Part shown: piece by piece, positions 33,059-51,958 of the stretch
Layout of the letters: every line of letters starts with the position of its first letter
Position numbering within the stretch: the first letter of the stretch is position 1
DNA from: Lingula anatina
Taxonomy: Eukaryota > Animalia > Brachiopoda
Direction of reading: 5' to 3'
DNA length: 64,000 nucleotides
NCBI GenBank assembly: GCA_051362555.1
Contig: CM120646.1
Span: 14,694,001-14,758,000 of the forward strand
Notes under the pieces: generated by a model
The model's database searches: none
What the model was told of the DNA's origin: nothing
What the model saw: the letters and a program-made list of their open reading frames with translations, nothing else
Program-made: the position numbers and the translations under genes

Positions 33059-36000
33059 ATGTTACAGAATAGAGTTAAACCTAATCTGGTCCGGTCGGTG
33101 TTAGTGTCACTGACCTTGCTTACAGCAGGTAAGTGATAAGCTTTGAATACATGTAGCACTCCGTTCCGAGTGACATTTTAAGTCAAAAACGTTTGCAATT
33201 ATACACATTAAATGTCTTATAGGCCCGAAGGTTGGGTGTTTCTTAAGCAAAGCATCACATTGCACTATAATGAATAAATGGATGAAGGAATGTAGGATAC
33301 ACATAGGACGTAAATCTCATTAACGATCTAATAACCGTTCAATCAATAGCTGAAAGGATAGCCGCTGTCAGTCTGTCAAGTTTTATACATGTACAACAAG
33401 ATTTAGACCCAGCTGGCCTACTTTGCTCAGCGTATTGCTACAGTATCGTTAGTTTTATCAAATTAACCCTGCGTCATGCAGGGAGGTTGTTACATATTAA
33501 CATATATCGATGTATTGAGGAAAACAGTTGACTGTTATTTTGAAGCGAATCTATGTGAAACGAATGAATGGAATGAGGAGAGTACAAAATATCCACCACC
33601 ATTATCTAGTCTGTGTTTAATTAAGTATTACCTTCGCAAAAATTACGCTTAAGTGTATTTTTAACCGTTTCCTAAACTACTACTTTGAAATGATCGAAGT
33701 GACTTCATAACTTCAGTCGGAAGTGTTAAGTAGTCTGTTATACTTAAGTGAATTAAAACTCCTCCCTTCATTATTGAAATAATAGAAGGAAGTGAGCAGA
33801 TTATTAATTAGTAATAAGAAGCAACTATATTGAAATATTTAAATTATAGAGATTTATTTAAATTATCGTACATTACAGTGATTTTTAATGTTCACCAAAA
33901 TTTTAATTTTAATTTTTAAATTAAAATTTCTTTGGTGGCTTTGGTGGATGTCTCTGTGATTCAAATAAATTAGCTTGGACATTTACTCACTAATTTTTTT
34001 TTCACTTAAGTTTCAATGAAATTGAACTTTTAAACTCGACCAATGAGATTGAAACACATTTTCATCCCTGCGATGTCCTCGAATTTCATAAAATTTAAAT
34101 GACCCTGAAGTTTCTAGTAAAACATTGAAAGTAAGTAAATTGATAACCAAATTAATTTTAATTGCAGAGGCATTATCATAGTCACACACCGCATTTAAAA
34201 CCAAAATTTAAAAAAGGTATTGAATGTCAAAGACCTGCAAGTTGGAAAGAATACTGCATAAGTGCCAAAATCATTAGTCTCTTTATGCTTTTAACCAATG
34301 ATATATGTTTAAATTTCCATTCCCAGACGCTGTGATCCCCCCTCCGTGTTCCTTTGAGTCCGGTATGTTGTGTACGTGGGTACAGATGCATAATGACAAC
34401 TTTGACTGGAGGATTAGACAGGGTCACACGCCTTCCCTCGATACTGGACCTATGGCTGATCACACTTATCAAAACGGTAAGCGCAGCACGTGCGGTGAAA
34501 CATTTATTTAAGAAAGATTGAGGGCGAGCGTACAGTGTGAAATATTGGTGGAACCCTATAGAAAAACGGCAAGTCAGATGGGTTTGCATGCGTTTGGAAA
34601 ATTATTCGCACCGTGTTTGATGTTTGCTTATAGCAGGTCCCTTTAATTTTATTATATTGTAAAAGGCATTTTGATTAGTTGCTTTCAAATCACGAGTGCT
34701 ATTATGAGCTGTGATCTCTCTTCTCGATTTCTGTTTATGTCATTGAGGAATAAATTGGATACACAGAATCTAGTCACAGCCCTATATAAGATAATGTAAC
34801 CACAGCTGTGTATAAAATATTACTTCCAAAATTGCTTGCCAACACCCTTTTTTTACCTGAGCGTCAGAGTATGTGACCGATGTCAGTGGATTTAAAAGCT
34901 TTATGTCTGGACACACAATATTTACTCTTTATCAGTTTTGCCGGTAACTTCCTTGTTCACCAGGCCCATGGCGACGGCATATACATTTCCCTGCTTTCTG
35001 TTTACTGGACGTGTGACTCATTGTAAATTTGTGTGTGAGATCCTACACGCCATATTTGTAGACGTTCATGTGCCAGCCTTAATGATTCATTATAGTCGCA
35101 AAAAGAAATTAAATATTTGCAATAAGTTTATCAAAACTAATAAGTCTGAAACAAACTCGATTAGTAGTTTCCAAGAACAATTCATTTTAAATAAGATAAA
35201 GAAAGACGAAATGTTTGCAGTGGCCGGTTTAATAATTAATCAGTAAATTTGCACACTGATAATACTGACAGCAATTACTGATTAGGCAACTAATACTATT
35301 GACCAGTTTCTTATATCTCAAAGATTGGTTGAGGGCTATTTACGTATCTCGTAGACGTTTTTCACGAAGTTGAACAAGATCCCATGTTAATGCATTAAGA
35401 AAACCCTTGTATAACAGTCACAATTTTGTTTCAGCTTATATGTATACAGCAGAGACATCTGGCGACAGTGTATATTATAGACAAAACGGTGTAGTACTGA
35501 ATCTTAAACTGAAAATATATTTCAGTGCAACTTACTGTTTGGTTAATGTTGAATGCTGCACGATTTTCCATTTAGGCCTACTAACACAACTAGTATATGG
35601 ATAAGCTTAAAACCTCGCAGTGAAAGTGCAAGAATGAATGATTTTGTTCACAGGCACCTCGAAATGAAAATAATTGGTTAACATCATACAGGTGTATAAA
35701 GCGTAAATGAAAACGGACAAAGAAAAAATTACATGAAGTCTAACCGTTATGTAGCTACACCTTATTTCGAATAAGGAAGCGCACAGTGTAACTAGGCTAT
35801 TTTCAGTAACGCCCCAGATTATACATGTCCCCGCGGCGTGTGAGCGGTGAGCAGGCATTTCTCGCGCTTACAGTTGGCAAAGGAGGTAGCGACAAAGACT
35901 TCTTGATATTTCTCTAATACGGTAACTGTTTTTATTCCATGCTATTGACAAGTTCAATGTTCATCGCACAGATAGATAAACAATGTGCAATAGTGCAGTG

Positions 36001-51000: not shown

Positions 51001-51958
51001 TATGTATATTGACCAAGATAGACGCGTAAAAAATTTAAGCTAGCTAATGTTATCAAAGCGCATTTCTTTCTGACACACTCTAATGTTTTTGATATTCTTA
51101 ATCAGACAACTTCTTCAGTCTGACATAACGTCGCTAGGTGTGATTTGTGTTAACTGTTGTTGCTTCCTTCGCCCTCTCCGCCATTATTATTATTATTATT
51201 ATTATTATTGTTATTATCATTATTATTATTATTATCATTATTATTATTATTTGCTCGTAAGTGATAGGTTCAGCAGTCTGCGTAATCTACGCAACAATGA
51301 AGTAAGACCACCGGCTGCGTGCAGTTCTGCCAGTCAACTTGCCCCGCCCCCAGTGACGTCTCAAGCCCCGCCTCCATATAGCAGTCTCTCTTTTAACGAC
51401 GCTGAAGACCACGTATACACGGATCTCGACAACGGTTACGTCATTCTGCAAGGTCAAGATCATTCCGCCAGTTTTCATCGGGATGGCAACCCCAAACGAG
51501 AGTCGGATACCAAAGAAAACTTCTGCACGCAGACACCCCCCGCTGCAACTAATTTTCCGCAAAGCAATGACCGTGTGTGTAATGTAGCATTTTCTGGGGA
51601 CAATAATGAAAGGAGTGGCGTTTCTGACCCACCAGATATACATATTCGTCAACATGGCGGAACCCCTGGACATGACATCCCTAAACAATTTTTGTGTCCA
51701 ATCAAAGGAGATCTAATGAAAGACCCTGTAATCGCGAGCGATGGTATCACATACGACAGAGCGGCTATAACACACTGGCTAAGTGGGAGCAGGATTTCCC
51801 CTGTTACAGCAAATGCTATGGCAGATTCGAACTTGACACCAAACAATCAGCTGCGCGAAAGTATCGCAACGTGGCGTCTTGGAAACCCTGAAATCCAGGG
51901 AAGTTACATTTCACTGAACTCTCGACCTTGTACACCTATGGCTGATGTGGAAGCTTAA
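33059..51958 (+). CDS. Type-I membrane protein SP-MAM-SRCR-LDLa-MAM-LDLa-MAM-SRCRx4-CUB-S/T stalk-TM-U-box, 30 exons, ~1574 aa
   Basis: Exons 33059-33128, 34327-34476, 36342-36445, 37312-37467, 37673-37760, 38157-38465, 38623-38742, 39023-39163, 39678-39763, 40045-40212, 40355-40445, 40889-41017, 41260-41403, 42163-42257, 42953-43126, 43408-43498, 43677-43829, 44362-44484, 44907-45280, 45973-46092, 46379-46513, 46779-46878, 47127-47360, 47872-48012, 48407-48559, 48896-48997, 49391-49492, 50463-50513, 50870-50999, 51268-51958; all GT-AG, phases consistent, total 4725 nt. Motifs: MAM (CSFESG...DNFDW...GPMADHT, DIAVDDI), LDLa ([20 protein letters not shown]), SRCR ([17 protein letters not shown]), CUB ([10 protein letters not shown]...VEFSSDAS...GF), [28 protein letters not shown]. 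Confidence 0.85.
36600..36769. mobile_element. Short TIR element (MITE), copy B, opposite orientation to 21429-21562
   Basis: CCGGTGTGACAGGAATGGTA...TACCATTCCTGTCCCACTG; shared internal GGGGTCCCATTT and GGTTCCTAGCGGACTAC blocks. Confidence 0.7.
39345..39625. mobile_element. Degenerate palindromic MITE related to 1139-1338
   Basis: Shares CGCGGACTAACAGA and AATATGGCC-ACC-ACTT arms with their inverted counterpart (AAGTGGAGTCGGCCATATT...GTTAGTGCACGG). Confidence 0.6.
41406..41468. repeat. (ATATT)n microsatellite directly after a splice donor
   Basis: Direct reading of the sequence. Confidence 0.9.
44495..44595. mobile_element. CCCAG-terminus MITE, copy B
   Basis: CCCAGCGAACACAGAACGTT...GTTCTGTGTTTGCTGG inverted termini, same family as 23894-24000. 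Confidence 0.65.
51674..51877 (+). other. U-box E3 ubiquitin ligase domain within the terminal exon of the receptor gene
   Basis: [68 protein letters not shown] matches the U-box consensus P--F-CPI---LM-DPV----G-TY-R--I--W------SP-T--------L-PN--L---I--W. Confidence 0.95.

What the first reader, a model, noticed from the sequence alone, without database searches (positions are those of the whole stretch)
33059..51958. Candidate receptor-type ubiquitin ligase: MAM/SRCR/LDLa/CUB ectodomain fused through a TM helix to a cytoplasmic U-box
Seen: 30 phase-consistent exons form one ~1574-aa frame. The TM exon ends in phase 2 (AGT CG|gtatgt, 50999), and all three nearby AG acceptors (51267, 51273, 51276) lead in frame into the U-box exon. 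Established: SRCR, MAM, LDLa and CUB are ligand/pathogen-binding modules (DMBT1, MALRD1, cubilin); the well-known animal cell-surface E3s (RNF43/ZNRF3, PA-TM-RING, MARCH) use RING domains; the classical animal U-box proteins (CHIP, UBE4, PRP19, WDSUB1, ACT1) are soluble. Inference: a scavenger-type receptor that couples extracellular recognition directly to ubiquitination, for cargo down-regulation or K63-chain immune signalling. I do not know of a described animal protein with this architecture, but could not search.
Basis: partly seen in the sequence, partly recalled or inferred. Interest (0 to 1): 0.92.

Follow-up and report, generated by a model that had tools for sequence, protein, structure and literature searches.

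The report
Scavenger receptor with built-in ubiquitin ligase
A lamp-shell (brachiopod) gene encodes a membrane protein with scavenger-type binding modules on one side and a ubiquitin-ligase (U-box) domain on the other, so it likely tags itself or what it binds for uptake; the same layout sits unexamined in a table of coral genes and may be a very old receptor type.

Summary
Thirty exons (29 GT-AG introns) give one stop-free frame: signal peptide, 3 MAM, 5 SRCR, 2 LDLa, CUB, one TM helix, tail, U-box. The gene matches Lingula anatina LOC106153451, and two public models have the same fusion. The U-box folds confidently onto E2-bound U-boxes but has Ala at the linchpin position; activity is untested. 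The architecture is in print: a 2016 supplement lists nearly collinear MAM/SRCR/LDL/CUB/U-box proteins in two Acropora species, with one sentence and no functional reading. I could not test orthology to them, and no search found a full-length non-Lingula relative. One unnamed tail fragment shares PPxY and the C-terminal motif. A Lingula paralog model lacks the U-box. Verdict: real, an uncharacterised U-box variant of receptor-type E3 ligases, probably old. Interest 0.62.

The parts
33059..51958 (+). Whole gene, 30 exons, 1576 aa with acceptor 51261 (1574 aa with 51267)
   Evidence: Exons: 33059-33128, 34327-34476, 36342-36445, 37312-37467, 37673-37760, 38157-38465, 38623-38742, 39023-39163, 39678-39763, 40045-40212, 40355-40445, 40889-41017, 41260-41403, 42163-42257, 42953-43126, 43408-43498, 43677-43829, 44362-44484, 44907-45280, 45973-46092, 46379-46513, 46779-46878, 47127-47360, 47872-48012, 48407-48559, 48896-48997, 49391-49492, 50463-50513, 50870-50999, 51262-51958. 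Matches XP_013382844.1 and UPI00078A155D.
33059..33128 (+). Exon 1: start codon and likely signal peptide
   Evidence: Hydropathy 1.65 at aa 10-28; same start in P0022 and a similar one in paralog P0023. No signal-peptide predictor was run.
34347..37753 (+). MAM1 (aa 31-187)
   Evidence: Pfam PF00629; coordinates
38168..38464 (+). SRCR1 (aa 194-292), acidic pair absent
   Evidence: PF00530; motif
38634..38741 (+). LDLa1 (aa 297-332), SDE motif present
   Evidence: PF00057; sequence
39040..40438 (+). MAM2 (aa 339-492), divergent
   Evidence: Three MAM stretches in P0022 and P0023
40906..41013 (+). LDLa2 (aa 501-536), SDE motif present; exons 12-13 are skipped in model P0022
   Evidence: PF00057
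41268..43485 (+). MAM3 (aa 541-701)
   Evidence: PF00629
43700..44965 (+). SRCR2 (aa 714-817), the only SRCR with the acidic pair and the C-terminal EDAG motif
   Evidence: cation site described in PMC7043408; residue mapping to that site is my inference
44990..47960 (+). SRCR3, SRCR4, SRCR5 (aa 826-1148), acidic pair absent
   Evidence: PF00530, five stretches in P0022
48409..49482 (+). CUB (aa 1167-1281)
   Evidence: PF00431
50463..50513 (+). Exon 28: Thr-rich stalk
   Evidence: loose ends of 3 reads before 50877 match the spliced exon 28-29 sequence at 22 of 30 letters, the unspliced DNA at 9 of 30
50896..50970 (+). Single TM helix (aa 1311-1335), followed by two Cys and a basic patch
   Evidence: 9 N-glycosylation sequons before it, 1 after
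51000..51261 (+). Intron 29 (262 nt, contains a TAT repeat); spliced at the AG ending 51261
   Evidence: Zero depth in 51010-51249; depth starts at 51261 in three columns
51368..51379 (+). PPxY motif (aa 1381-1384), candidate Nedd4-family WW site (function recalled)
   Evidence: also in P0118, absent in P0023
51416..51427 (+). YxxL motif (aa 1397-1400), candidate sorting signal (function recalled)
   Evidence: equivalent YxxL in paralog P0023
51677..51883 (+). U-box (aa 1484-1552): Ile1492, Trp1517 and Pro1525 kept; Ala1528 at the linchpin position
   Evidence: PF04564; PDB sequence hits; alignments; model pLDDT 94.8; TM-score 0.88, rmsd 0.9 to 7xed_C
51920..51949 (+). C-terminal SRPxTPM motif shared with unnamed protein P0118

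Best explanation
This gene encodes a single-pass membrane protein with a MAM/SRCR/LDLa/CUB ectodomain and a U-box in its tail, and it likely works as a receptor-type ubiquitin ligase that marks itself or bound membrane partners for endocytosis and lysosomal sorting. Shown: the exon chain, the domain order and the U-box fold. Shown indirectly: the TM-to-U-box splice (read depth) and type I topology (hydropathy, sequons, basic patch). Inferred: the ectodomain binds ligands, probably Ca-dependently through the two LDLa modules and SRCR2; binding clusters the receptor; the U-box, on a roughly 150-residue flexible linker, recruits an E2~ubiquitin and ubiquitinates lysines of its own tail (7 present) or neighbouring proteins; YxxL and PPxY motifs add clathrin-adaptor and Nedd4-family input. 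Because the linchpin Arg is replaced by Ala, activity is probably weak unless the receptor is clustered or paired with a suitable E2.
For: Exon chain and domains. Two public models with the same fusion. Read depth fitting three spliced reads at 51261, none in the intron. No Met upstream of the U-box in its exon. U-box model pLDDT 94.8; best fold match is a U-box solved in complex with an E2. E2-facing Ile/Trp/Pro kept (their role is recalled). Non-Arg residues at the same position in WDSUB1 (Asn) and plant PUB17-like proteins (Gly); PMC12326332 reports that linchpin substitutions range from minor loss to abolition (abstract and passages). PPxY and C-terminal motif shared with P0118. Collinear architecture in Acropora. 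Precedent: ZNRF3/RNF43 and MEGF8/ATRN-MGRN1 control surface-receptor abundance (PMC12752501 passages). SRCR genes as a class are enriched in digestive tissues in nine species including Lingula (PMC10855680 passage; not specific to this gene).
Against: No activity, substrate, ligand or localisation data. Ala at the linchpin position; the RBX1 N98A change there inhibited activity. Four of five SRCRs lack the acidic pair. A paralog model has the whole ectodomain, TM and proximal tail but no U-box, so the ectodomain may act without one. The tool listed no joint row because no run reached 3 reads; the reads are only 88-99% alike and come from another allele, population or close copy; one YxxL-type Tyr (51438) is changed in them. 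Exons 1-20 were not tested with reads. Expression was seen in 3 of 7 runs laid; the other 4 gave no reads and count as no test.
Confidence: 0.5

Rival explanations
1. Signalling receptor: ligand clustering would make the U-box build K63 chains with Ubc13/Uev1, as a platform for TAK1/NF-kB-type immune signalling, like ACT1 or TRAF6 but fused to the receptor.
For: CHIP-Ubc13 and TRAF6-Ubc13 complexes are among the fold matches; SRCR genes are expanded in Lingula, 113 models; coral versions were listed among candidate immune receptors.
Against: Those fold matches are generic to all U-box/RING domains. The tail carries sorting-type motifs, and Pfam finds no TIR, SEFIR or death domain. Only one SRCR keeps the acidic pair.
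Confidence: 0.2
2. Pseudo-ligase or adaptor: the U-box would be kept for dimerisation or E2 docking, while a Nedd4-family ligase recruited by PPxY does the ubiquitination.
For: Ala at the linchpin position; PPxY in both tails that have a U-box and not in the paralog model that lacks it; P0118 lacks the helix Trp.
Against: All positions invariant or nearly invariant in the 16-sequence alignment are present in the window's U-box; 68 of 69 residues identical to the RefSeq allele; linchpin identity varies among active ligases.
Confidence: 0.22
3. Gene-model artefact or recent accident: the U-box exon would be a separate or newly inserted element that is not part of the receptor's main transcript.
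For: The U-box lies in the last exon; a paralog model lacks it; no full-length non-Lingula relative came up.
Against: Read depth fits splicing at 51261; no Met before the U-box; the paralog shares the first part of the same exon; P0118 is one continuous frame from TM end to U-box; corals have the same layout.
Confidence: 0.05

Closest known systems
Acropora SRCR+CUB+UBOX proteins (A. millepora c000424, 1948 aa; A. digitifera aug_v2a.03894.t2, 1126 aa; PMC5119243 supplement file 2)
   Same: Collinear order MAM-SRCR-MAM-LDL-MAM-SRCRn-CUB-U-box; TM between CUB and U-box in the A. digitifera entry.
   Different: Lingula has an extra LDLa, four distal SRCRs, one CUB and no WSC; the A. millepora entry lists its TM at the N-terminus. 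The paper gives one sentence and no E3 reading. No sequence was available, so orthology is untested.
RefSeq XP_013382844.1 / LOC106153451 and UPI00078A155D (Lingula anatina)
   Same: Same gene, 97% identical in the tail; same fusion.
   Different: Named 'uncharacterized'; the 1331-aa model lacks the first ~250 residues and the 1485-aa model skips exons 12-13.
RNF43/ZNRF3 and PA-TM-RING ligases
   Same: Ectodomain, one TM helix, cytoplasmic E2-recruiting domain; ligand-regulated control of surface receptors.
   Different: They use a PA ectodomain and a zinc RING-H2 close to the membrane (recalled); here a 1280-residue multi-module ectodomain and a U-box about 150 residues from the membrane.
MEGF8/ATRN-MGRN1 complexes
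   Same: Large-ectodomain single-pass protein coupled to a cytoplasmic E3 (CUB content of their ectodomains is recalled).
   Different: Their ligase is a separate RING protein bound through a MASRPF motif; here the ligase domain is in the same chain.
DMBT1/SALSA, MALRD1 and MAMDC4/endotubin
   Same: SRCR+CUB (DMBT1) or MAM+LDLa (MALRD1) modules; DMBT1-like and MALRD1 proteins are the best non-Lingula ectodomain hits.
   Different: None of those hits carries PF04564; DMBT1 ends in ZP. MAMDC4 is recalled, not tested.
Soluble U-box ligases: WDSUB1, plant PUBs, CHIP, UBE4
   Same: U-box sequence and fold.
   Different: No WD40/SAM, ARM, TPR or UFD2 core; the U-box falls in neither the WDSUB1 nor the PUB clade in a 75-column tree with weak backbone support.

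Membership tests
U-box E3 ligases | PF04564 above the curated cut-off | tested here: met
   70 bits against 21.4
U-box E3 ligases | U-box fold | tested here: met
   pLDDT 94.8 with a 16-row alignment; TM-score 0.88, rmsd 0.9 to 7xed_C. The single-sequence model failed, pLDDT 43.
U-box E3 ligases | Hydrophobic E2-facing residues (loop-1 Ile, helix Trp, loop-2 Pro; roles recalled) | tested here: met
U-box E3 ligases | Cationic linchpin (common, not universal) | tested here: not met
   Ala where LubX U-box 1 has Arg; Asn in WDSUB1, Gly or Arg in PUBs; CHIP/E4B Arg is recalled
U-box E3 ligases | E2-dependent ubiquitin transfer | not testable with these tools
   Needs an in vitro assay
RNF43/ZNRF3 and PA-TM-RING | Signal peptide, ectodomain, one TM, cytoplasmic E3 domain | tested here: met
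RNF43/ZNRF3 and PA-TM-RING | PA ectodomain | tested here: not met
   No PA family among 8 Pfam families
RNF43/ZNRF3 and PA-TM-RING | Zinc RING-H2 | tested here: not met
   Only U-box is found in the tail
DMBT1/SALSA | SRCR repeats with CUB | tested here: met
DMBT1/SALSA | C-terminal ZP domain | tested here: not met
   No ZP family
MALRD1/MAMDC4 | Ectodomain made of MAM and LDLa repeats only, tail without an enzyme domain | tested here: not met
   MALRD1 hits list only PF00629 and PF00057; this protein adds SRCR, CUB, U-box
WDSUB1 | WD40 and SAM domains; U-box in the WDSUB1 clade | tested here: not met
Acropora SRCR+CUB+UBOX group | Collinear MAM-SRCR-MAM-LDL-MAM-SRCRn-CUB-U-box order | tested here: met
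   with differences in repeat counts
Acropora SRCR+CUB+UBOX group | Sequence orthology or shared intron positions | not testable with these tools
   Coral sequences were not returned and were not recognisable; the supplement table gives identifiers only

The most novel reading that the evidence does not exclude
An unrecognised family of receptor-type U-box ubiquitin ligases that dates to the cnidarian-bilaterian ancestor, survives in corals and brachiopods, is missing from the animals usually studied, couples scavenger-type recognition directly to ubiquitination in one chain, and in Lingula is paired with a ligase-less decoy paralog.
Probability: 0.4. Interest if true: 0.85.

Novelty: new variant of a known kind. 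Interest (0 to 1): 0.62.

Why it matters
The animal cell-surface ligases described in the papers I read use RING domains, in the same chain (RNF43/ZNRF3) or through an adaptor (MEGF8/ATRN-MGRN1). A U-box fused to a large scavenger ectodomain would be a separate route to the same logic. If the coral and brachiopod proteins are orthologs, the route is as old as the cnidarian-bilaterian split. It gives a testable link between surface recognition and ubiquitin sorting in invertebrate epithelia, including coral-symbiont uptake, where scavenger receptors are implicated (PMC5119243). The tail is small and easy to assay, and a zinc-free, single-chain membrane E3 module could interest work on degrading surface proteins.

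Tried and rejected
No whole genome is held, so paralogs and synteny beyond the window were not searched. No RNA holder was listed by index; raw-read runs were laid instead: X1, X4 and X2, X5 gave 0 reads at about 6% read, which is no test. Homolog searches found no non-Lingula protein with ectodomain plus U-box: 1 of 20 hits has both, the Lingula model; 1 hit of 10 candidates; 1 of 20 has PF04564; best 150 of 14349, crowded by multi-U-box proteins; none of 149 matched the ectodomain by BLAST; 24 of the 149 scanned with Pfam had no MAM/SRCR/LDLa/CUB. They also did not return the Acropora proteins known from print, so they say little about range. ESM Atlas: one weak CUB cluster at 0.76, no usable hit for P0118. 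Metagenome scans: 118 pattern matches, none confirmed; 35 loci with the C-terminal motif pattern, none with a tblastn match. U-box trees did not join the window's U-box to P0118; holding them together was not rejected (AU p 0.111). Juxtamembrane similarity to P0118 was not significant (762 of 3000 shuffles). Single-sequence fold failed. Supplements of PMC10855680, which hold domain tables for 1747 SRCR genes in 29 species, could not be read and may list this architecture. Earlier scan findings: none by words or sequence. Rejected: a separate U-box gene (no Met before the domain); membership of DMBT1, MALRD1, WDSUB1 or PA-TM-RING families (defining domains absent); a link to the MASRPF motif (only three letters shared). 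No complex prediction was sent: U-box with E2 is a textbook pair.
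Full report
Observation. Thirty exons from 33059 to 51958 have 29 GT..AG introns and give 4725 nt, 1574 aa, with no internal stop. Pfam on single exons finds MAM, SRCR, LDLa, CUB and a U-box (70 bits, cut-off 21.4). The order is signal-like N-terminus, MAM, SRCR, LDLa, MAM, LDLa, MAM, four SRCR, CUB, Thr-rich stalk, TM (aa 1311-1335), about 150 residues of linker, U-box (aa 1484-1552), 24-residue end. 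Topology is inferred from hydropathy, 9 sequons before against 1 after the TM, and a basic patch after it.

Identity. The last exon is 97% identical to Lingula anatina XP_013382844.1 (LOC106153451, 'uncharacterized', 1331 aa), whose precomputed domains are CUB, SRCR, MAM, LDLa and U-box. A second member of that cluster (P0022, 1485 aa) starts at the same ATG as the window model and skips exons 12-13. I did not see the evidence behind these models, and they are predictions on the same species.

Is the U-box part of the transcript? Seven RNA runs were laid in two calls. (46300-53300, 95% likeness): X7 2 reads, X9 9 reads, X1 and X4 none. (50410-51609, 88%): X8 11 reads, X9 17, X2 and X5 none. 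In one search depth is zero in bins 51010-51249. In bin 51250-51289 three columns (X8+, X9+, X9-) each show 0.73, i.e. 29 bases, which is what acceptor 51261 gives once the G that fits both sides is counted; the other acceptors give 23, 17, 14. In X8 only 1 of 11 reads is partly laid, and a 24-base piece ends at the TM donor, so that piece belongs to a read laid in full. I infer three spliced reads. The tool printed no joint row, since it needs three reads in one run. Loose ends of 3 reads before 50877 match spliced exon 28-29 at 22 of 30 letters, unspliced DNA at 9 of 30. The reads are 88-99% alike; of 24 listed differences 7 are synonymous and none is a stop, so they come from another allele, population or close copy. 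The first Met in the exon-30 frame lies inside the U-box, so the exon cannot start its own U-box protein. Exons 1-20 were not tested with reads.

The U-box. PDB sequence hits are LubX, plant PUB, E4 and CHIP U-boxes (28 sequences). With a 16-row alignment the model has pLDDT 94.8 and matches the OsCIE1 U-box in its E2 complex at TM-score 0.88, rmsd 0.9. Ile1492, Trp1517 and Pro1525 are kept (their E2-facing role is recalled). The linchpin position is Ala1528; LubX U-box 1 has Arg, WDSUB1 Asn, PUB17-like proteins Gly. PMC12326332 (abstract and passages) reports that substitutions there range from minor loss to abolition, and PMC12919000 (passages) that the linchpin is not always required and that humans have 8 U-box proteins. 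So activity is likely but not certain. The tail also has PPxY, three Yxx-hydrophobic motifs and 7 Lys; one of the Tyr is changed in the reads.

The ectodomain. Both LDLa repeats keep the SDE motif. Only SRCR2 keeps the acidic pair and the EDAG motif; PMC7043408 (abstract and passages) shows that acidic cation sites mediate SRCR ligand binding. Mapping those residues is my inference. This argues against a DMBT1-like polyvalent binder and for more specific ligands.

Relatives. (a) In print: PMC5119243 (passages, section 17, supplement file 2 part 2) says in one sentence that cnidarian DMBT-like proteins combine CUB with MAM, fibronectin, UBOX and SRCRs. [quoted passage not shown] The order is collinear with Lingula. 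I had no coral sequence, so orthology is inferred from order only. (b) P0118, an unnamed 233-aa protein, is the best single-stretch hit after the gene itself among 1.84 billion representatives. It starts in a hydrophobic stretch followed by basic residues, has PPxY and a U-box, and ends in the same SRPxTPM motif: top score of 187 proteins, 0 of 5000 shuffles. Against: the motif was noticed before it was tested, the juxtamembrane match is not significant (762 of 3000), and U-box trees do not join the two (AU p 0.111). Its ectodomain and organism are unknown. (c) Paralog XP_013382414.1 keeps the ectodomain (897 of 1282 identical), TM and proximal tail but its model stops before the U-box and lacks PPxY: a decoy or an assembly error. 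(d) No search returned a full-length non-Lingula relative; they also missed the coral proteins, so they do not bound the range.

Literature. Nine answered searches concerned the architecture or its context and mechanism. U-box with SRCR, transmembrane, invertebrate, with Nematostella, with MAM and UBOX with coral gave PMC5119243 as the only relevant listing; Lingula anatina with U-box gave 0; one search gave one review on adhesion molecules (listing only). PMC10855680 (passages, section 6) counts 113 SRCR genes in Lingula and never mentions U-box in the main text; its supplements were unreadable and may list this architecture. PMC6321704 (passages) has no U-box mention. PMC12752501 (passages) describes ZNRF3/RNF43 and MEGF8/ATRN-MGRN1. 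Subscription papers, including a Lingula immune-gene survey that I recall but did not see, are outside the library.

Mechanism. Most likely (0.5) a receptor-type E3: ligand binding clusters the receptor, the U-box recruits E2~ubiquitin and tags its own tail or membrane neighbours for endocytosis and lysosomal sorting, helped by YxxL and PPxY. Rivals: adaptor with Nedd4-type ligase doing the work (0.22), K63 signalling platform (0.2), artefact (0.05). My estimate that TM and U-box are one chain is about 0.93, that the U-box has some ligase activity about 0.72, that the coral proteins are orthologs about 0.7.

Verdict. It works like RNF43/ZNRF3 or a fused MEGF8-MGRN1, but belongs to neither family. 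The architecture was tabulated once in corals and auto-annotated in Lingula, and I found no paper that reads it as a ligase. New variant of a known kind; interest 0.62.

Noticed in passing
P0023 (XP_013382414.1, another Lingula scaffold): Paralog with the same ectodomain, TM and proximal tail whose model ends just before the U-box and lacks PPxY: possible decoy receptor or assembly error.
   Followed up: partly
window 40889-41403: Exons 12-13 (LDLa2 and the start of MAM3) are skipped in public model P0022; skipping keeps the frame but would cut MAM3.
   Followed up: no
window 51261-51276: Four tandem in-frame acceptors; only 51261 has read support.
   Followed up: yes
P0021 (XP_013405701.1): 351-aa 'neurotrypsin-like' model on another scaffold that matches the window at residues where P0001 differs: probably a fragment of the other haplotype.
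   Followed up: no
window 52900-61700, minus strand: Convergent multi-CUB gene(s) with long Thr/Ser-rich mucin-like stretches, TM-like segments near 53560 and 60970 and a short tail. Could be one or two genes.
   Followed up: partly
window about 17700-28300, minus strand: Multi-exon gene with C-type lectin-like and EGF matches below or near cut-off and an RRKRR furin-like site near 21960.
   Followed up: partly
window about 30720-32280, plus strand: Small three-exon candidate for a secreted peptide: hydrophobic leader, Trp/Gly-rich stretch, Thr-rich linker, Cys-rich end; no Pfam match for the first exon, start codon not resolved.
   Followed up: partly
window 62811-63708, plus strand: Tc1/mariner-type transposase remnant: DDE_3 and a weak HTH_Tnp_Tc3_2 match in different frames.
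   Followed up: partly
P0100 (unnamed JGI/IMG record): Cadherin-like domain, TM helix and two U-boxes: another ectodomain-TM-U-box layout, organism unknown.
   Followed up: partly
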